Of a DNA stretch of 11,284 bases, positions 4,369-11,183 are shown in pieces; within the stretch, counting starts at the first letter, position 1; each line of letters starts with the position of its first letter. The DNA is taken from the IMG/VR virus record IMGVR_UViG_2663763286_000008. One strand, given 5' to 3'. The stretch is from a virus (lineage: Duplodnaviria; Heunggongvirae; Uroviricota; Caudoviricetes). Below the pieces are notes generated by a model. That model was not told the origin of the DNA, searched no databases, and worked only from the letters and a program-made list of their open reading frames with translations. The position numbers were made by a program, and so were the translations under genes.

Positions 4369-5517
4369 TCATGGCATAGCCATGAGCATTTTCACGTCCG
4401 CATCACCGTCTGCTGACGTCTGTGGCACGCCACCCTGTACCGCTGCCGGTGAATGGTTCGCCATGATGCGTTCAAACAGGGCGGTTGTGGATGCAGAGAC
4501 CGGTTCTGCCTTACCTGATCCCGCAGCCAGCACAGCCCGGGCGCTCTCCACAGTCATTCCCGGGCAGGCAGCCAGCTGTTCAGCCTGCGCCTCAGCCCCT
4601 TTTGCCTCATCCAGTGCCATGATCTGATCACGGAGTGAGGGTCCGGCATCCGCCTGCGGTGAAGCAGCCAGGATCGGGCGGGCTTTTTCCACCGTCATCT
4701 CCGGCATCGCCGCCTGACCTTCAAAAACGGCGGCCTCTGTTCCCGTGACGGCATCAACAGACAGACCGGTAAACATGGCCACTTTTTCGGCAAACATCCG
4801 GCGCGCCGCATCAATGCGCTGCTGCATGTCCTGGCGAACCTCTGCCGGTAAGGCTTCAAACTGATTGCCATCCACCTTGTGCGCCCCTGAGTAAATCAGC
4901 GTGATATCCACACCGGCCTGCGCCAGATGACCGGCATAGCTGACATGGCTCATCATCACGCCAATGGAGCCGATACGGGATGTCTGGGTAACCAGCCGTC
5001 GGGAGCAGGCCGACGCCAGCAGCATGGCTGCAGAACAGGCCGTGTCATTGCACAGTGCCCAGACCGGCTTCTGCTGACGGAGGCGGTAAATCATGTCAGC
5101 GCAGTCAAACGCGCCGGCGGCCTGCCCGCCCGGACTGTCAATGTCCAGCAGTACGCCCCGCACCTGGCTATCCGCCATTGCCTGCTGAAGACAGGCGACA
5201 ATGCCGTCATAGCCTGTCATTCCGGAAAATGGCCGCATACCCCCCAGCCGGTGCACCAGCGTGCCGGTCACCGGCAGTACAGCAATACCGTTCACCACCC
5301 GGTAAACACGGGCCGGTCGTTTACCTCCGGCCATGTACTCGTCCGTTTCAGCCAGCATTCCGGGAGCATCAAGCTGTACCTGCTGCTGTGGTACCGAAAG
5401 ACTTGCTGCCCCCATCTCGCGCCCGAGCGCGCAAAAGAAAACCCGCGCATAGGCGGGCTCCAGAAGCAGCGGTTCATTGAATGCTGCGGCAATAATGTGT
5501 GAAAGATTACGTCTCAC
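4369..5517 (-). CDS. C: head maturation protease / scaffold (lambda gpC homolog, ClpP/S49-like fold), probably with a nested Nu3-like scaffold reading frame
   Basis: The 382 aa product contains AFNEPLLLEPAYARVFFCAL, VLPVTGTLV, LLDIDSPGG, GAFDCADMI, KPVWAL, SRRLVTQTSRIGSIGVMM, ITLIYSGAHKVDGN and ETPGMTV, collinear with lambda gpC. It starts at a GTG with a GAGGAG ribosome-binding site and overlaps the end of B by 11 nt. Confidence 0.9.
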   Translation of the reverse strand: MRRNLSHIIAAAFNEPLLLEPAYARVFFCALGREMGAASLSVPQQQVQLDAPGMLAETDEYMAGGKRPARVYRVVNGIAVLPVTGTLVHRLGGMRPFSGMTGYDGIVACLQQAMADSQVRGVLLDIDSPGGQAAGAFDCADMIYRLRQQKPVWALCNDTACSAAMLLASACSRRLVTQTSRIGSIGVMMSHVSYAGHLAQAGVDITLIYSGAHKVDGNQFEALPAEVRQDMQQRIDAARRMFAEKVAMFTGLSVDAVTGTEAAVFEGQAAMPEMTVEKARPILAASPQADAGPSLRDQIMALDEAKGAEAQAEQLAACPGMTVESARAVLAAGSGKAEPVSASTTALFERIMANHSPAAVQGGVPQTSADGDADVKMLMAMP

Positions 5518-7099: not shown

Positions 7100-7302
7100 A
7101 ACCTCACTCCCAGCGGATGACGGCGACGCCGGGTTGTCCCCAGTACCGACTCCGCATCATTGATCGCCCGGTTAAGCTCATCCAGAGAAGCCGCCGTATA
7201 TTCAATTCTGCGACCATCTTTCTGGACAGACACCACCCGTTTACCGGTTAATAAATCAAGGCGCGCCTGACGCAGCGCCTGCAGTTCAGCGACTGTAACC
7301 AT
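7096..7302 (-). CDS. W: head-tail joining / head completion protein (lambda gpW homolog)
   Basis: The 68 aa product contains TGKRV..VQKDGRR.E.TA.S and RRRR, the same length and motif as lambda gpW. Its stop overlaps the B start as ATGA. Confidence 0.9.
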   Translation of the reverse strand: MVTVAELQALRQARLDLLTGKRVVSVQKDGRRIEYTAASLDELNRAINDAESVLGTTRRRRHPLGVRL

Positions 7303-9214
7303 TCACTCCTCCGGACAGCTTCGCTGCCAGTTCTTTCAGGGTTGGCCGGGTCGTCTCTTCTTCCCGGGATTTTGCCAGTACAGCCAGATCAAGCTGCCAG
7401 CGTTGCACGGACACACGTAATGCCGCGTAGGCATACACCAGGCAGTCCAGCGCTTCGTTACGCCGCTTTTTGTTATCCCACAGCAGACGCATCTTTCCTT
7501 TTTCCCACTTCTCCACCAGCTCTTCCGCCACCAGTTGCTGCGCCTCTGTCTGCGAAAAAATCTCCGGATCATCAGGAAAACGGATGGCATACGACGTGGC
7601 TTCATCCGCAGGCGAGGGATCGGCTTTCATACGGGCATAGAGAATTTCTTTTGCGGTGTCCGTTCCCACTTCACACAGATACACGCCCCGCTGATTGCGG
7701 GTTTTTGGCATGGTGATCACCGGCTTGCCATAGACAGATGCGCCTTTTACCGGCAGCACCCGGAAAACACCGTGTTTTTTTGATCTCTGATAAACAATTT
7801 CACCATCGATCCCCCCGGTGTCCCAGCAGACACGGGAAATAGTCATTTCGGTGCCATCCGCATGGCGGTATTTTTTGTTGATCGCCGCATCCACACGTAA
7901 CAGCGTCTCTTCCTCATCAGGACGCCCCATAATGATGATTTTATCCACCAGAAAGGCTTCCTCTCCCGGAGCCCATCCCCAGACATACATCTCAAAACGG
8001 TTTCGCTGCGAGTCAATGCCCGCCGTCAGATAAACCACCCGGGCAGGCACCGCCGCCGTGTAACGCACCACCTTATCCATCAGTACCTGGTGATCGAGTT
8101 TTTCGCCCACGGCCTCTTCCCAGGTCTCGCCCAGCGTGGTGTTCACAAAGGTTTTCAGGCCGTTGGGATCTTTCAGTGCATCCAGCCAGTCATAGACAAT
8201 CTGTACCCAGGTGGTGAACGGACTGTACGCCGTCCAGATATGGAAAGTGATGGAGCGCGGCGGCGGAATTTCATCACCCCGGGCGCTGAAAAACGTCAGA
8301 CCGTCACGGGTCCACATGCCCGTGTTTTCACAGATCCACCGCCCGTTGCTCTGGTCCAGTTCAGACTGATGGATCACGCAGCCATGATGTTCACAGAGGT
8401 AGAAAACACTTTCAGGGCTGTCCTTCTCCCATTTAAGCCCAAAAGGCGTGGACTCATCGCCAAATTTCAGATACTGCTCCTCCCCACAGTGCGGGCAGGG
8501 CACATAAAAACGCATAAAATGCGCCGACTCGTTAGCGGCTTTTTCGATCTGGCAGGTGCCTTTGATTTTAGGCGTCGAGCCGCGAATGGATTTTGGCCAC
8601 ACCGACCCCTCAATACGCTTATCCCCCAGCAGGGTTGGCGAGCCCTCTTTTTCGACATCCGGCTCGAACGAGGAAAGTTCGTCATAGCAGACCACGTCCA
8701 CGGATTTTTCACGGTAGTTTTTGGCGGCAGCGCCGCCCAGGCACCAGAAACCGACGCCCGATGAAAAGCGTTTCAGCGTGAGAGTATTGTCACGATGTTT
8801 ACGACCCAGCCATGGGGAAAGGTCTTTCAGGCATGGCACGTTCCGAATCGTCGCCTCCACGTGAGACTTCATAAAATCTTCAGCGGCAGAATCCGTGGGC
8901 TGAAAAAGCAGACTGTTTCGGGATTTATGCTCAATAAAATACCCGACCACCCCCAGCAACATCTTTGTATAGCCAACACGGGCAGATTTAATCAGGTTAA
9001 CCGTGCGAACCTGGTCGTTACCCATACAGTTCATAATGGCGATCTGGAATGGCAGCGTTTTCCATTCTCCCTCACCGTATGAGGATTCTTTAGGCAGATA
9101 ATAATTTTGATCAGCCCATTCAACTGCCGTCATTGGTACAACCCTGACCAGAGGCTGCAGCGCAACCGAAACGGCAGCCATCATATTATTCAGTTGTTGC
9201 TCTGATATATTCAT
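7286..9214 (-). CDS. A: terminase large subunit (lambda gpA homolog)
   Basis: From the ATG at 9214 (MNISEQQLNN) the 642 aa product contains TAVEWAD.NYYLPKES, ARVGY.KMLLGV, KSVDV..YDEL, GDKRIEGSVWPKSIRGSTPK, HFMRF.V.CPHCGEEQYLKFGD.ETPFGLKW, HIWTAYSPFTTWVQIV and KKRRNEALDC.VYA.AALR, collinear with lambda gpA. The ORF track's longer TTG start at 9271 is rejected. Confidence 0.95.
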   Translation of the reverse strand: MNISEQQLNNMMAAVSVALQPLVRVVPMTAVEWADQNYYLPKESSYGEGEWKTLPFQIAIMNCMGNDQVRTVNLIKSARVGYTKMLLGVVGYFIEHKSRNSLLFQPTDSAAEDFMKSHVEATIRNVPCLKDLSPWLGRKHRDNTLTLKRFSSGVGFWCLGGAAAKNYREKSVDVVCYDELSSFEPDVEKEGSPTLLGDKRIEGSVWPKSIRGSTPKIKGTCQIEKAANESAHFMRFYVPCPHCGEEQYLKFGDESTPFGLKWEKDSPESVFYLCEHHGCVIHQSELDQSNGRWICENTGMWTRDGLTFFSARGDEIPPPRSITFHIWTAYSPFTTWVQIVYDWLDALKDPNGLKTFVNTTLGETWEEAVGEKLDHQVLMDKVVRYTAAVPARVVYLTAGIDSQRNRFEMYVWGWAPGEEAFLVDKIIIMGRPDEEETLLRVDAAINKKYRHADGTEMTISRVCWDTGGIDGEIVYQRSKKHGVFRVLPVKGASVYGKPVITMPKTRNQRGVYLCEVGTDTAKEILYARMKADPSPADEATSYAIRFPDDPEIFSQTEAQQLVAEELVEKWEKGKMRLLWDNKKRRNEALDCLVYAYAALRVSVQRWQLDLAVLAKSREEETTRPTLKELAAKLSGGVNGYSR

Positions 9215-9695
9215 CGAGTAAATCCGGTAATTTATCCCCTGCCCGCGCACACTGATTTGCCCCCTTCGCAATAAGGGTTTTCAGATGGTCAAGATGGCGC
9301 GGTGTTAAATCAGGAAACTGTCGCTGCATGGATAAAGGGATGGAATCAAGCGTACTGGATAACGCCATTGCCAGCTTACTGAGGGCAAAAATACAGAACC
9401 CGGTGTCAATAAGTTTTCCTTTTGACACCTCATTTTTTAACTGCTGTGTAACAGCCTGTTCTGCTGTCAGTTCCCATCTGGCAATAAGCAATTTCTCCTC
9501 ATAGTCGTCTTCGCTATCGCCATCAGGCACATCGTTTTTACTTCTCCTCAGATATGATATGTAAAAATCGCGCCAGGCATCCAGATCCAGTTGCCCTCGC
9601 TTATTCGATATCGGGGCACCCGGCAATTTCTGCAATCTGCGAAGCTGGCGATCGGTCAGACTTAAATGCCTGGCAACTTCAGTCTGCGTAGCCAC
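9186..9695 (-). CDS. nu1: terminase small subunit (Nu1-like) with a divergent N-terminal DNA-binding domain
   Basis: The C-terminal two thirds (IDTGFCIFALSKLAMALSSTLDSIPLSMQRQFPDLTPRHLDHLK...LLDEYI) resemble lambda Nu1, whereas the N-terminus (MATQTEVARHLSLTDRQLRRLQ, HTH-like) does not. It starts at a GTG with a GAGGTGAGGA ribosome-binding site, overlaps the start of A by 29 nt as in lambda, and sits directly downstream of cos. Confidence 0.85.
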   Translation of the reverse strand: MATQTEVARHLSLTDRQLRRLQKLPGAPISNKRGQLDLDAWRDFYISYLRRSKNDVPDGDSEDDYEEKLLIARWELTAEQAVTQQLKNEVSKGKLIDTGFCIFALSKLAMALSSTLDSIPLSMQRQFPDLTPRHLDHLKTLIAKGANQCARAGDKLPDLLDEYIRATTE

Positions 9696-9735
9696 TCCTC
9701 ACCTCGCAAAAACTCTCACCTCACAATCACAACAA

Positions 9736-9842
9736 AACCGGTCATGTCCGGTTTACATGTCTGTTTTTTGTTCATGTCCGGTTCACAGAAGACCTGTTTT
9801 TATATTTTTCATATAGTTAACTTGAAGAGAAACCGGACATGG
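9736..9842 (-). promoter_or_regulatory. cosB-like region: three copies of an 11 bp core (catgtccggtt) flanking an AT-rich tract; predicted terminase small-subunit and IHF binding sites
   Basis: The core occurs at 9743-9753 and 9773-9783 (plus orientation) and inverted at 9832-9842 (aaccggacatg). The first copy sits inside a longer palindrome, aaccggtcatgtccggtt. An AT-rich segment (9795-9830) lies between copies 2 and 3, mirroring the lambda R3-I1-R2-R1 layout. Confidence 0.65.
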
Positions 9843-9878
9843 ATCCCGGAAAATTTTCATAAATAGCGAAAACCCGCG

Positions 9879-9890
9879 AGGTCGCCGCCC
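9879..9890 (-). other. cosN cohesive-end sequence (minus strand GGGCGGCGACCT)
   Basis: The minus strand reads gggcggcgacctcgcgggttttcgctatttatgaaaattttccgg, identical to the lambda left end as I recall it. The other side (9891-9906, minus-strand read gatccgacaggttacg) matches the lambda right terminus. Confidence 0.85.
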
Positions 9891-10097
9891 CGTAACCTGT
9901 CGGATCGCCGGAAAGGACCCACGAAAATGATAATAATTATCATCTACATGAGGTTTATCACGACATGTGTGTACGCCATCAAACCACGAGAAATAATCAA
10001 TTATTACGCAAGTATCGTATTAATTGATCTGCATCAAATTAGCGTAAAAGCAACTTCAGATAATACAAATCAGCAACACTGAATACGGGGCAACATT

Positions 10098-10322
10098 ATG
10101 TCATCAAAGAACAGAACCCGCAGAACAACAACCCGCAACATCCGATTTCCAAACCAGATAATTGAACAAATTAACATCGCTCTTGACCTGAAAGGTTCAG
10201 GTAATTTTTCAGCGTGGGTTATTGAAGCCTGCAGAAGAAGATTAATTAATGAAAAATATTCTCAATTTGTACCCAACAAAGACAAACACGACCAGAGCAC
10301 CTGTTCAGACAGGTTTACTTAA
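10098..10322 (+). CDS. small DUF3950-family protein (YlcI/YnfO-like; homolog of the small ORF at the lambda right end), probable ribbon-helix-helix fold
   Basis: The 74 aa product MSSKNRTRRTTTRNIRFPNQIIEQINIALDLKGSGNFSAWVIEACRRRL has the YlcI/YnfO-type N-terminus I recall from lambdoid prophages. The pattern of a basic N-terminus, a short beta strand (NIRFP) and two helices resembles ribbon-helix-helix DNA binders. ATG start with a GGGG ribosome-binding site. Confidence 0.75.
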   Translation: MSSKNRTRRTTTRNIRFPNQIIEQINIALDLKGSGNFSAWVIEACRRRLINEKYSQFVPNKDKHDQSTCSDRFT

Positions 10323-10403: not shown

Positions 10404-10718
10404 TTAGCATTTTTTTGACCGCGCGTTTCCGGACGTATTCTGTTCTCCTGTCCCTTTATATCGTCGGAATACCCGCCGCTCTTCAAATCCCATTCCCAAC
10501 TCAGAATGTAGTCTGTTGACCGCTTGTTTTATTTCGGTCAGGTTCACCGGTGAAACCGGAGTCCGGCGCGCCTTACGCAAACACTCTGCTCGTTTCTGTG
10601 CCGCCACTTTTCTTTTCTGGTCATCACTTAGCTGTACCATCACTTTTGCCCATCGTTCAGCTGCTCTCCGGTACAGTCCTTTTTTCTCCAGACATTCTGC
10701 CACGTGATCATGTAGCAT
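10404..10718 (-). CDS. PerC-family transcriptional regulator (Pch-like, PerC homolog)
   Basis: The 104 aa product MLHDHVAECLEKKGLYRRAAERWAKVMVQLSDDQKRKVAAQKRAECLRKARR carries the LEKKGL(W/Y)RRA..RWA..M motif that I recognise as the PerC/Pch signature. ATG start with a GGAGG ribosome-binding site 8 nt upstream. Low GC, in contrast to the flanking phage genes. Confidence 0.75.
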   Translation of the reverse strand: MLHDHVAECLEKKGLYRRAAERWAKVMVQLSDDQKRKVAAQKRAECLRKARRTPVSPVNLTEIKQAVNRLHSELGMGFEERRVFRRYKGTGEQNTSGNARSKKC

Positions 10719-10761
10719 AAGTGACCTCCGATTATCTACAGACTGCCATCCTGAATTTACC

Positions 10762-10856
10762 TTCCCTTAATGAAATAACAATAAAAAACAAACCACGCAA
10801 AAACAATAAAACAACACACAAAAAAAACTAAATAATAAACAAAAATAATCACCTTA
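10762..10856 (-). repeat. strand-asymmetric low-complexity tract (A/C-only on plus, T/G-only on minus) in the PerC-like gene's upstream region
   Basis: About 95 bp (aaataacaataaaaaacaaaccacgcaaaaacaataaaacaacacacaaaaaaaactaaataataaacaaaaataatcacc) contain almost no G and very little T on the plus strand. The tract lies about 45-140 bp upstream of the PerC-like start codon. Confidence 0.6.
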
Positions 10857-11183
10857 TTTTATTATTTTTTGAGGGAGCAATTACTGAACAAAAAACGCTG
10901 ACTATATACTCAAAACCAAACAACTATTCTGCCAATCAGGTATCATGGCAACACACGGAATTACCGTGTTTTTGCCTTCTCTGCCCATACAATACGGGCA
11001 TATACTTCATACTCTATTGTAATATTTCTATCCATGCGCCCCACTCCATTTACCTGTAAATAATATTCAAAATATTTATCACAGAAATCGTTTTTGGCCA
11101 TGAACTGAGCACACTATAAAGTCCGGAACTGACTCTTTGTTAAATTACTTTAACGTTACCAGTAACACCTTCATAACAAAACA

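What the first reader, a model, noticed from the sequence alone, without database searches (positions are those of the whole stretch)
9696..9906. Mosaic cos site: lambda-identical cosN but a different cosB repeat set, paired with a divergent Nu1 N-terminus
The cohesive-end sequence and about 35 bp either side are identical to lambda as I recall it. Further in, lambda's R sites (core cgtttcc) are replaced by three copies of catgtccggtt in a two-direct, IHF-like AT tract, one-inverted arrangement. The small terminase subunit keeps a lambda-like C-terminal, gpA-interacting part but has an unrelated HTH-containing N-terminus and a GTG start. This is the pattern expected for a packaging-specificity swap like the lambda versus phage 21 difference, with the recombination joint inside cosB and nu1. 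The intact cos also means the prophage DNA could still be packaged or mobilised if the missing functions were supplied.
Basis: partly seen in the sequence, partly recalled or inferred. Interest (0 to 1): 0.5.

Follow-up and report, generated by a model that had tools for sequence, protein, structure and literature searches.

The report
Lambdoid cos site with distinct specificity
This is the DNA-packaging start site of a very common E. coli lambda-like prophage: it keeps lambda's cutting site, but its terminase-binding repeats and the matching protein domain belong to a widespread recognition class that nobody appears to have tested.

Summary
On the minus strand the window has lambda's cosQ and cosN. 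Identity to lambda runs from bp -30 to +45 with one mismatch and ends abruptly at bp 46. Three exact CATGTCCGGTT copies then sit close to where lambda has R3, R2 and R1, with an IHF-like AT tract between the first two. A 169-aa GTG-start small terminase follows.

Only the C-terminal ~92 residues align to lambda Nu1 (46% identity). The N-terminus is not unrelated, though. It is predicted to be a winged helix-turn-helix and is a remote relative of the Nu1/Rpp DNA-binding domains.

In 15 of 15 loci carrying this N-terminal type (E. coli, Klebsiella, Salmonella, Citrobacter, Enterobacter, Aeromonas, Pseudomonas), a TCCGGTT-core site lies between cosN and terS. Loci with a very similar C-terminal half but an N15-type or lambda/21-type N-terminus carry different repeats. 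So cosB plus the first ~65-90 codons of terS behave as one exchangeable specificity module.

The site is not phage 21 type. It is identical to the cos and Nu1 published for O157 Sakai prophages Sp4 and Sp14, and occurs in 1155 of 5426 complete E. coli genomes. It is an ordinary, functional lambdoid cos of a probable fourth, untested specificity class.

The parts
9914..9920 (-). cosQ (GGGTCCT), cos positions -30..-24
   Evidence: Identical to lambda. Invariant across the six enterobacterial relatives aligned. Labelled cosQ for the identical Sp4/Sp14 sequence in PMC2669165 Fig S8.
9879..9890 (-). cosN cohesive-end sequence GGGCGGCGACCT (predicted 12-nt 5' overhang); nick-site flanks reach 9877-9892
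   Evidence: Zero mismatches to lambda and phage 21. That cutting actually occurs here is inferred by homology.
9849..9861 (-). I2-type IHF-like tract TATGAAAATTTTC (cos 30-42) inside the lambda-identical block
   Evidence: Two mismatches to WATCAANNNNTTR. Labelled IHF in PMC2669165 Fig S8. Conserved in relatives.
9831..9841 (-). R3-equivalent site CATGTCCGGTT (cos 50-60), proposed critical TerS binding site
   Evidence: Exact repeat. Occupies much the same position as the annotated phage 21 R3 at 50-65. The ATGTCCGGTT core is invariant in five of the six aligned relatives and TCCGGTT in all six, while the flanks vary. In phage phiARM81ld, whose record starts at the cos end, the matching site is at bp 50-66.
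9807..9819 (-). I1-equivalent IHF-like site TAACTATATGAAA (cos 72-84) in the AT tract between R3 and R2 equivalents
   Evidence: Two mismatches to the IHF consensus. Positionally equivalent to the annotated phage 21 I1 at 74-86. Relatives have better matches at the same place, for example Klebsiella TAACCAATTGATT.
9773..9783 (+). R2-equivalent site, inverted relative to R3 equivalent (cos 108-118)
   Evidence: Exact repeat. Nearly the same position as the annotated phage 21 R2 at 107-122. AACCGGA(C/A)AT is invariant in all six aligned relatives.
9736..9753 (+). R1-equivalent: exact copy 9743-9753 in the R2 orientation, overlapping a 1-mismatch copy 9746..9736 in the R3 orientation (near-palindrome AAACCGGACATGACCGGTTT)
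   Evidence: Present in PhiR12_1, Enterobacter and Klebsiella relatives but absent in the Salmonella and Citrobacter ones, so it is probably accessory, like lambda R1. Also flagged as a weak terminator-like hairpin.
9534..9695 (-). terS 5' part encoding the N-terminal DNA-binding domain (residues 1-54; GTG start 9695; predicted recognition helix residues 15-22, DRQLRRLQ)
9186..9695 (-). terS, small terminase subunit, 169 aa
   Evidence: Pfam Phage_Nu1 at 1e-18 over residues 49-150. PHROG phrog_57 'terminase small subunit' over the full length. Matches Sakai Sp14 Nu1 as printed (OCR text) in PMC2669165 Fig S8.
9424..9845 (-). Exchangeable specificity module: cosB plus terS codons 1 to about 65-90
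   Evidence: The left edge is the end of identity to lambda at cos bp 45/46. The right edge is where DNA identity to the N15-type E. coli locus L025 rises from 35-48% to 70-92%, at terS nt ~211-271. At protein level, the joint to lambda/21-type relatives P0063 and P0067 lies just before DYEEKLL, residue ~63.
7286..9214 (-). terL, large terminase subunit (ATG at 9214; overlaps the end of terS)
   Evidence: Pfam GpA_ATPase and GpA_nuclease. 66% identity to lambda gpA, with the alignment starting at the ATG.

Best explanation
Window 9696-9920 (minus strand) is a functional lambda-type cos site of a lambdoid prophage of the O157 Sakai Sp4/Sp14 kind.

The large terminase subunit recognises the conserved cosQ-cosN-I2 block and makes staggered nicks that produce GGGCGGCGACCT cohesive ends. 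It is positioned there by the small subunit. [quoted passage not shown] A third, probably accessory, site lies at bp 138-148.

Because the repeat core (TCCGGTT) and the recognition helix (DRQLRRLQ) both differ from those of lambda, phage 21 and N15, this cos/TerS pair most likely forms a separate packaging specificity. It would package its own kind, including co-resident prophages with the same cosB, and not lambda-, 21- or N15-type DNA.

cosB plus the first ~65-90 codons of terS travel together as a recombination module.

- **Shown here:** the sequence anatomy, co-variation across taxa, the module boundaries, and the predicted fold.
- **Inferred:** TerS-site binding, IHF bending, the cut positions, and non-cross-reactivity.
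For: - **Anatomy colinear with lambda and 21.** cosQ, cosN, I2, R3, I1 and R2 lie within a few bp of the positions annotated in the phage 21 record; R1 lies about 12 bp closer to cosN.
- **Co-variation.** 15 of 15 loci with this N-terminal type have a TCCGGTT-core site between cosN and terS. None of 7 loci of other types has it in an R position. The background rate is 1 per 5641 strand-bases. N15-type loci have GGTTGTTGT, lambda has CGTTTCC and phage 21 has CATGTCGG.
- **Footprint-like conservation.** In six enterobacterial relatives the R3 and R2 equivalents, cosQ and I2 are invariant while the spacers are scrambled.
- **Finer co-variation.** Sites reading atGTCCGGTT always accompany the helix RQLRRLQK. 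Sites reading ttTCCGGTT or cttCCGGTT accompany RRLRDL, RQINNL or RQVRxL.
- **Position relative to a cos-like genome start.** The phage phiARM81ld record starts with a lambda-like cohesive-end sequence, and CATTTCCGGTTCCGGTT lies at bp 50-66 of it.
- **Viable phages carry it.** PhiR12_1 to PhiR12_5, recorded with K-12 and E. coli C as hosts, carry this region at 96.5% identity with all sites intact.
- **Published packaging.** Sakai Sp4, with the same cos and a broken nu1, is packaged.
- **Module boundaries.**
Against: - There is no binding, cutting or packaging experiment for this class. Specificity is inferred from sequence only.
- The repeat shares CATGTC with phage 21 R2/R1 (TTTCATGTCGG), and the Pseudomonas version (CGTTTCCGG) shares 8 bp with lambda R3. 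Some cross-recognition cannot be excluded; N15 terminase packages lambda DNA despite divergent elements (PMC4669245).
- The IHF-like sites have 2 mismatches each.
- Co-variation counts are not phylogenetically independent.
Confidence: 0.8

Rival explanations
1. The site has the same functional specificity as an already documented class. Phage 21 is the obvious candidate because of the shared CATGTC; lambda is the other. On this reading it is a sequence-diverged but cross-packaging member, not a separate class.
For: Phage 21 R2/R1 read TTTCATGTCGG(A/G)CC against CATGTCCGGTT here. cosQ, cosN and I2 are identical to lambda. There is a precedent for asymmetric cross-packaging: N15 terminase packages lambda DNA.
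Against: - After CATGTC the sites differ (GGnCC versus CGGTT).
- CATG is not the conserved part of this class. Relatives have GATG, CATT, CGTT or GCTT, and the invariant core is TCCGGTT.
- The recognition helix DRQLRRLQK differs from phage 21 PRTIERWQS and lambda IRTIQNWQE at most positions. The whole domain is undetectable by BLASTP, Pfam or PDB sequence search.
- Lambda and 21 differ far less from each other, yet exclude each other more than 1000-fold.
Confidence: 0.08
2. The repeats are not TerS sites. They might instead bind another protein such as a regulator, form an RNA or terminator structure in the late transcript, or simply be inherited sequence, with TerS recognising something else.
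For: The R1-equivalent near-palindrome and a hairpin overlapping R3 are flagged as terminator-like. The R3 and R2 equivalents can pair in RNA. An ORF on the opposite strand (9666-9866) overlaps the region, and a shorter opposite-strand ORF in this region is annotated as hypothetical in PhiR12_1.
Against: - RNA folding is no better than shuffled sequence (z -0.48; 60 of 200 shuffles fold as well).
- No promoter-like sites were found.
- The sites track the TerS N-terminal type across genera, while the rest of cosB and the flanking genes change.
- Position relative to cosN is fixed at bp ~50-60, the place where TerS must sit in lambda and N15.
Confidence: 0.05
3. The cos is an inert relic in a decayed prophage. 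It is conserved only because it is recent, and it is no longer used.
For: Many lambdoid prophages of pathogenic E. coli are defective (PMC2669165). The window's protease/scaffold gene is 119 aa shorter than its PhiR12_1 counterpart.
Against: - All head and terminase ORFs in the window are open.
- Five phage records with K-12 or E. coli C as host carry the same cos.
- The module is found in 1155 of 5426 genomes at 90-100% identity in nearly all of them. Site-specific conservation extends to other genera.
- The 119-aa difference lies in a stretch that looks internally repetitive.
Confidence: 0.05

Closest known systems
Phage lambda cos (cosQ-cosN-I2-R3-I1-R2-R1) with gpNu1/gpA terminase
   Same: cosQ, cosN and the sequence through bp 45 are identical, with 1 mismatch across -30..+45. 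The order is the same, and the spacing of R3, I1 and R2 is nearly the same (R1 lies ~15 bp closer to cosN). terS starts at bp 196 here versus 191 in lambda. TerL is 66% identical. The TerS C-terminal half is 46% identical.
   Different: The R core is CATGTCCGGTT here versus CGTTTCC(g/t)TTCT in lambda. The third site has the orientation of R2, not of R3. The N-terminal DNA-binding domain is not alignable by BLASTP or Pfam, and TerS is 12 aa shorter.
Phage 21 cos / gp1 (the classic alternative specificity; OL657228)
   Same: cosN is identical and the architecture is the same. The R sites share the hexamer CATGTC.
   Different: The phage 21 core continues GGnCCTT versus CGGTT here, and starts 3 bp further from cosN in R3. 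Phage 21 gp1 has a lambda-like N-terminus (MKVNKKRLAEIF..RTIERWQSQG), whereas this one is MATQTEVARHL..DRQLRRLQKLPG.
Phage N15 and 'Monarch'-group prophages (third documented specificity; PMC4669245)
   Same: The cosB plus TerS N-terminus is swapped as a unit on a related C-terminal half and TerL. E. coli, Klebsiella and Salmonella prophages with the N15-type N-terminus share up to ~92% DNA identity with the window downstream of terS nt ~270. Relatives of the present class also exist in both 'simple' (R3 only) and 'complex' (three sites plus IHF) forms. Some simple ones carry an inverted copy ~195 bp downstream inside terS, like N15's rR2.
   Different: The R core is GGTTGTTGT and the N-terminus is MAVLLNKSDMASS.... 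hhalign probability against the present domain is 1%.
E. coli O157:H7 Sakai prophages Sp4 and Sp14 (Asadulghani et al. 2009, PMC2669165, Fig S8)
   Same: The Nu1 protein matches (169 aa), and so does the cos sequence as far as it is shown. The neighbouring PerC-family gene also fits this kind of prophage. The paper shows packaging of nu1-defective Sp4 DNA and attributes it to Sp14 terminase.
   Different: As held in text form, the figure stops at ...CCGGGATCCATGT and labels only cosQ, cosN and IHF. I found no description there or elsewhere of the cosB repeats or of a specificity class.
PICI Rpp proteins (RppA/B/C; 6HN7, 6HLK)
   Different: Rpp proteins lack the TerL-binding C-terminus and act as heterodimers with a helper TerS. 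PICI cosB (GTGACACCACCACC) has no TCCGGTT and no repeats.

Membership tests
Lambda-type cos site (cosQ-cosN-cosB) | 12-nt cohesive-end sequence related to GGGCGGCGACCT, with a conserved cosQ heptamer ~30 bp upstream | tested here: met
   Exact GGGCGGCGACCT at 9890..9879 and GGGTCCT at 9920..9914. Identical to lambda from -30 to +45 except at position -17.
Lambda-type cos site (cosQ-cosN-cosB) | A TerS-binding R3 site at about bp 50-65 from the left cohesive end | tested here: met
   CATGTCCGGTT lies at bp 50-60. The site is conserved at the same position in relatives and at bp 50-66 of phiARM81ld, whose record starts at the cos end. Binding itself was not tested.
Lambda-type cos site (cosQ-cosN-cosB) | An IHF site between R3 and an inverted R2 | tested here: inconclusive
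   The inverted R2 equivalent at bp 108-118 is clear. The IHF-like TAACTATATGAAA at bp 72-84 has 2 mismatches to the consensus, though it lies where phage 21 I1 is annotated and relatives match better.
Lambda-type cos site (cosQ-cosN-cosB) | R1 in the same orientation as R3 (the arrangement in lambda, 21 and Monarch) | tested here: not met
   The exact third copy (9743-9753) has the orientation of R2. Only a 1-mismatch overlapping copy has the R3 orientation, and it is not conserved in the Klebsiella or Enterobacter relatives.
Lambda-type cos site (cosQ-cosN-cosB) | Virion DNA ends generated at cosN | not testable with these tools
   This needs end-mapping of packaged DNA. PhiR12 records are not deposited starting at cos.
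Nu1-family small terminase (Pfam PF07471 / PHROG 57) | Central and C-terminal (TerL-binding) region homologous to Nu1, encoded directly upstream of and overlapping a gpA-type TerL gene | tested here: met
   PF07471 at 1e-18 over residues 49-150. BLASTP 46% identity over residues 73-164. TerL has GpA_ATPase plus GpA_nuclease domains and overlaps the terS end.
Nu1-family small terminase (Pfam PF07471 / PHROG 57) | N-terminal winged HTH DNA-binding domain of the Nu1 type | tested here: inconclusive
Phage 21 packaging specificity | R sites of consensus (T)CATGTCGGnCCTT and recognition helix RTIERWQS | tested here: not met
   The best match of CATGTCCGGTT in phage 21 cosB has 3 mismatches. The helix here is DRQLRRLQ.
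Lambda packaging specificity (lambda, 434, phi80) | R sites with core CGTTTCC and recognition helix RTIQNWQE | tested here: not met
   No CGTTTCC occurs in the window's cosB, and the helix differs.
N15/Monarch packaging specificity | R sites with core GGTTGTTGT and N-terminus MAVLLNKSDMASS... | tested here: not met
   The motif is absent here but present 3 times in loci L025-L027 and once in N15. hhalign probability is 1%.

The most novel reading that the evidence does not exclude
This is a fourth lambda-type packaging specificity, beside lambda, 21 and N15, defined by a TCCGGTT-core cosB and a highly diverged winged-HTH TerS domain. It would be mutually exclusive with the three documented classes. 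It is carried by about a fifth of complete E. coli genomes, often in two or more copies. Co-resident prophages of EHEC/EPEC, which carry PerC/Pch regulators and effectors, would then form a private cross-packaging pool. Sub-specificities inside the class would be set by recognition-helix residue 20: Arg with atGTCCGGTT, and Asp/Asn/Ser/Thr with ttTCCGGTT.
Probability: 0.6. Interest if true: 0.45.

Novelty: new member of a known kind. Interest (0 to 1): 0.3.

Why it matters
Packaging specificity decides which DNA a terminase will encapsidate. It therefore decides which defective prophages, islands or cos plasmids a given helper can mobilise.

- **Prevalence.** This module is in 1155 of 5426 complete E. 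coli genomes, with a median of two copies per genome that has any. Those genomes include O157:H7, O26:H11, O103, O111 and ST131 strains. In the window it sits next to a PerC-family regulator gene. Knowing that it forms its own recognition class would predict which prophages can rescue one another, as proposed for Sakai Sp4 and Sp14.
- **A natural experiment.** The Feiss laboratory noted that the lambda, 21 and N15 comparisons do not probe how far a TerS DNA-binding domain and its sites can diverge while still steering a conserved TerL to a conserved cosN. This class is a more extreme case.
- **Practical use.** It could provide an orthogonal cos/terminase pair for cosmid or phagemid delivery.

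None of this changes the known mechanism. It extends a known family.

Tried and rejected
- **PDB sequence search with the whole TerS.** Only chance hits at E >= 0.7 and nothing to Nu1 or Rpp chains.
- **Pfam on the N-terminal 64 aa at E <= 10.** Only a sub-threshold Sigma70_r3 hit.
- **RNA-structure reading of the repeats.** Rejected; z -0.48.
- **Promoter reading.** No sites found.
- **Link to PICI cosB.** Rejected; the PICI R3 region is GTGACACCACCACC.
- **Phage 21 identity.** Rejected after fetching the annotated phage 21 cos.
- **Literature.** Full-text searches for cosB/TerS specificity classes, for the repeat sequences themselves, and for the PhiR12 phages found no description of this class. 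The two key Virology papers (PMC4461450, PMC5006951) are not held, so I cannot exclude a mention there.
- **Statistics.** The three-mismatch-tolerant motif count over the whole window is not significant (6 observed, 3.67 expected). The case rests on the three exact clustered copies and on co-variation.

Full report
**What is in the sequence.** The packaging genes read on the minus strand. I number cos positions so that position p corresponds to window coordinate 9891-p.
- GGGCGGCGACCT lies at 9890..9879 and GGGTCCT (cosQ) at 9920..9914.
- An ungapped comparison with the joined lambda right and left ends is identical from -30 to +45, apart from a C/T difference at -17. From +46 onward matches are only scattered.
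- Three exact CATGTCCGGTT copies follow. One is at 9841..9831 in the sense of the genes. Two are inverted, at 9773-9783 and 9743-9753. A one-mismatch copy at 9746..9736 overlaps the last one and forms a near-palindrome.
- Three copies of any 11-mer in this 195-bp interval arose in 2 of 5000 dinucleotide shuffles.
- The looser whole-window motif count is not significant by itself.
- Between the first and second copy lies TAACTATATGAAA at cos 72-84. This is an imperfect IHF consensus placed where the phage 21 record annotates I1.

**The small terminase.**
- The ORF 9695..9186 starts at GTG directly after an in-frame stop, with GAGG 6 nt upstream. The N-terminus MATQ is invariant in 29 of the 31 aligned relatives, several of which start with ATG, so the start is sound.
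- Pfam Phage_Nu1 covers only residues 49-150. BLASTP to lambda Nu1 covers only residues 73-164 at 46% identity.
- TerL (9214..7286) is 66% identical to gpA.
- The protein part is therefore a separate old lineage of the lambda terminase family. It is not lambda with a patch.

**Is it phage 21 type?** No. The phage 21 record (OL657228) annotates R3, I1, R2 and R1 at 50-65, 74-86, 107-122 and 150-166.
- Its sites read AATCGTGTCGGTACTT, TTTCATGTCGGACCTT and TTTCATGTCGGGCCTTG. They share CATGTC with the window's repeat but then diverge.
- Phage 21 gp1 has a lambda-like N-terminus.

**Co-variation, which is the main evidence.** A protein search returned relatives in which a very similar C-terminal half is joined to three N-terminal types:
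- the present type (MATQxEVAxHL..., ~169 aa);
- an N15 type (MAFLLNKSDMASS..., 168 aa);
- a lambda/21 type (MKVNKKELADFF..., 184 aa).

I fetched loci for each type, and also phage 21, N15, Aeromonas phage phiARM81ld, Pseudomonas phage LPPA33 and E. coli phage 705R4.
- All 15 loci with the present N-terminal type have a TCCGGTT-core site between cosN and terS. None of the 7 others has it in an R position. Lambda has one copy inside the conserved I2 block.
- N15-type loci have GGTTGTTGT instead. That matches the published N15 R3, GAGGTTGTTGTT.
- In six enterobacterial relatives, cosQ, I2 and the R3 and R2 equivalents are invariant while the spacers differ freely.
- The phiARM81ld record begins with a lambda-like cohesive-end sequence, and its site is at bp 50-66.
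- Inside the class, atGTCCGGTT sites go with the helix RQLRRLQK. ttTCCGGTT or cttCCGGTT sites go with RRLRDL, RQINNL or RQVRxL.

These counts are not phylogenetically independent. However, they span Escherichia, Klebsiella, Salmonella, Citrobacter, Enterobacter, Aeromonas and Pseudomonas.

**Module boundaries.**
- Against an E. coli prophage with the N15-type N-terminus (L025), DNA identity is 35-52% from cosB to terS nt ~+200. It then rises to 70-92% through terL.
- At protein level, the lambda/21-type Salmonella proteins P0063 and P0067 become near-identical to Salmonella proteins of the present class (e.g. P0028) from DYEEKLL, residue ~63.
- cosB plus terS codons 1 to about 65-90 is therefore exchanged as a unit. 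This mirrors the laboratory hybrids lambda-21 hy51 and lambda-N15 hy4.

**Nature of the N-terminal domain.**
- It has no sequence match in PDB or Pfam.
- An AlphaFold2 model (mean pLDDT 76) gives helix 4-10, helix 15-22, a loop or wing, and helix 38-54.
- Foldseek hits are weak (E > 0.5), but those matching the N-terminal domain are MerR-like winged HTH proteins and 6hn7_B.
- hhalign gives 15% against lambda/21-type domains, 73% against Rpp domains and 1% against N15-type domains. Lambda-type against Rpp is 97% and against N15-type is 80%.
- PHROG 57 (terminase small subunit) covers the whole protein.

I read this as a very diverged member of the same winged-HTH group, not an unrelated domain. 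The evidence for that is moderate.

**Is it functional, and is it known?**
- Five phage records (PhiR12_1 to PhiR12_5), with K-12 MG1655 or E. coli C given as host, carry the region at 96.5% identity with all sites intact.
- Fig S8 of Asadulghani et al. 2009 prints the cos and Nu1 of O157 Sakai Sp4 and Sp14, and both match the window. The text reports that Sp4, whose nu1 is interrupted by an IS, is nevertheless packaged, probably by Sp14 terminase.
- As held in text form, that figure stops at the first bases of the R3 equivalent and labels only cosQ, cosN and IHF.
- Feiss et al. (PMC4669245) state that only the lambda, 21 and N15 specificities are documented.
- My searches found no description of this class. 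Two relevant Virology papers could not be read.
- The cosB plus N-terminal module occurs in 1155 of 5426 complete E. coli genomes, with a median of two copies per genome that has any.

**Rivals.**
- *Cross-specificity with 21 or lambda.* This is unlikely given the divergence of the helix and the core, but only an assay can exclude it.
- *RNA or terminator function.* RNA folding is unremarkable (z -0.48), and no promoter-like sites are present.
- *Inert relic.* This is contradicted by the phage records with laboratory hosts and by conservation across genera.

1. The N-terminus is remotely related to Nu1, not unrelated.
2. The C-terminal half is Nu1-family rather than close to lambda.
3. The third site is oriented like R2, which departs from lambda.

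This is a normal, functional lambdoid cos belonging to a common but experimentally uncharacterised recognition class. It is a new member of a known kind, of modest interest.

Noticed in passing
window 10404-10718 (-) and 10098-10322 (+): A PerC-family transcriptional activator gene (Pfam PerC, 3.8e-44) and a DUF3950/YlcI-YnfO family gene lie between the lysis genes and cos. This is a typical cargo position in EHEC/EPEC lambdoid prophages, and the RefSeq annotation in an O103:H2 strain agrees.
   Followed up: partly
L032 (phiARM81ld) terS nt 173; L033, L009, L014 nt 173; L034 (705R4) nt 182: Relatives with a 'simple' cosB (a single R3-type site ~22 bp before terS) carry an inverted AACCGGA inside terS, about 195 bp downstream of R3. 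This resembles the remote rR2 site proposed for N15. It falls on a (K/E)PE codon run in the otherwise variable linker, so protein constraint is an alternative explanation. Four other Pseudomonas loci lack the exact match.
   Followed up: partly
TerS residue 20 (window ~9636-9638) versus cos bp 53 (window 9838) and equivalents: Within the class, Arg at recognition-helix position 20 (RQLRRLQK) always accompanies G in atGTCCGGTT (5 loci, 13 exact-core sites). Asp/Asn/Ser/Thr accompany T or C at that base (10 loci). This suggests a direct Arg-guanine contact and sub-specificities.
   Followed up: partly
lambda cos bp 40-47 (L002) and window 9846-9851: Lambda's own conserved I2 block contains TTCCGGTT, the core of this class's R sites, just upstream of lambda R3. 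The window keeps TTCCGG there but not the TT. The Pseudomonas R3-type site CGTTTCCGGTTCC shares 8 bp with lambda R3, CGTTTCCGTTCT. This hints that the R-site families are related by descent.
   Followed up: no
window 4369-5517 (-): The head protease/scaffold (S49 peptidase, lambda C/Nu3 equivalent) is 382 aa here versus 501 aa in PhiR12_1. The 119 missing residues fall in a stretch that looks like repeated EAKG(R/A)E...MTVE.AR.IL units, and the ends are near-identical. It looks like in-frame repeat-number variation rather than a lesion, but function is untested.
   Followed up: partly
cosN in L022, L023, L024, L027, L028: [quoted passage not shown] This agrees with what is reported for N15 and gifsy-1.
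   Followed up: no
window 9666-9866 (+) and L001 6077-6199 (-): A 66-aa ORF on the opposite strand overlaps cosB and the terS start, and a shorter opposite-strand ORF in this region is annotated 'hypothetical protein' in PhiR12_1. It is probably a spurious call over the cos site.
   Followed up: no
window 9735-9754 (-): The R1-equivalent near-palindrome AAACCGGACATGACCGGTTT followed by TGTTGTGATT is flagged as a terminator-like hairpin just upstream of terS. It could also be a symmetric site for a TerS domain dimer.
   Followed up: no
window 10760-10880: A long A-rich, low-complexity stretch (aaaaaacaaaccacgcaaaaacaataaaacaacacacaaaaaaaactaaataataaacaaaaataat) lies upstream of the PerC-family gene. 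It was not examined.
   Followed up: no
E. coli complete genomes; plasmid collection: The cosB plus TerS N-terminal module occurs up to 4 times per genome. It also appears on 9 records filed as plasmids (171-1413 kb), most of them predicted non-mobilizable. These may be phage-plasmids or misassigned contigs.
   Followed up: no
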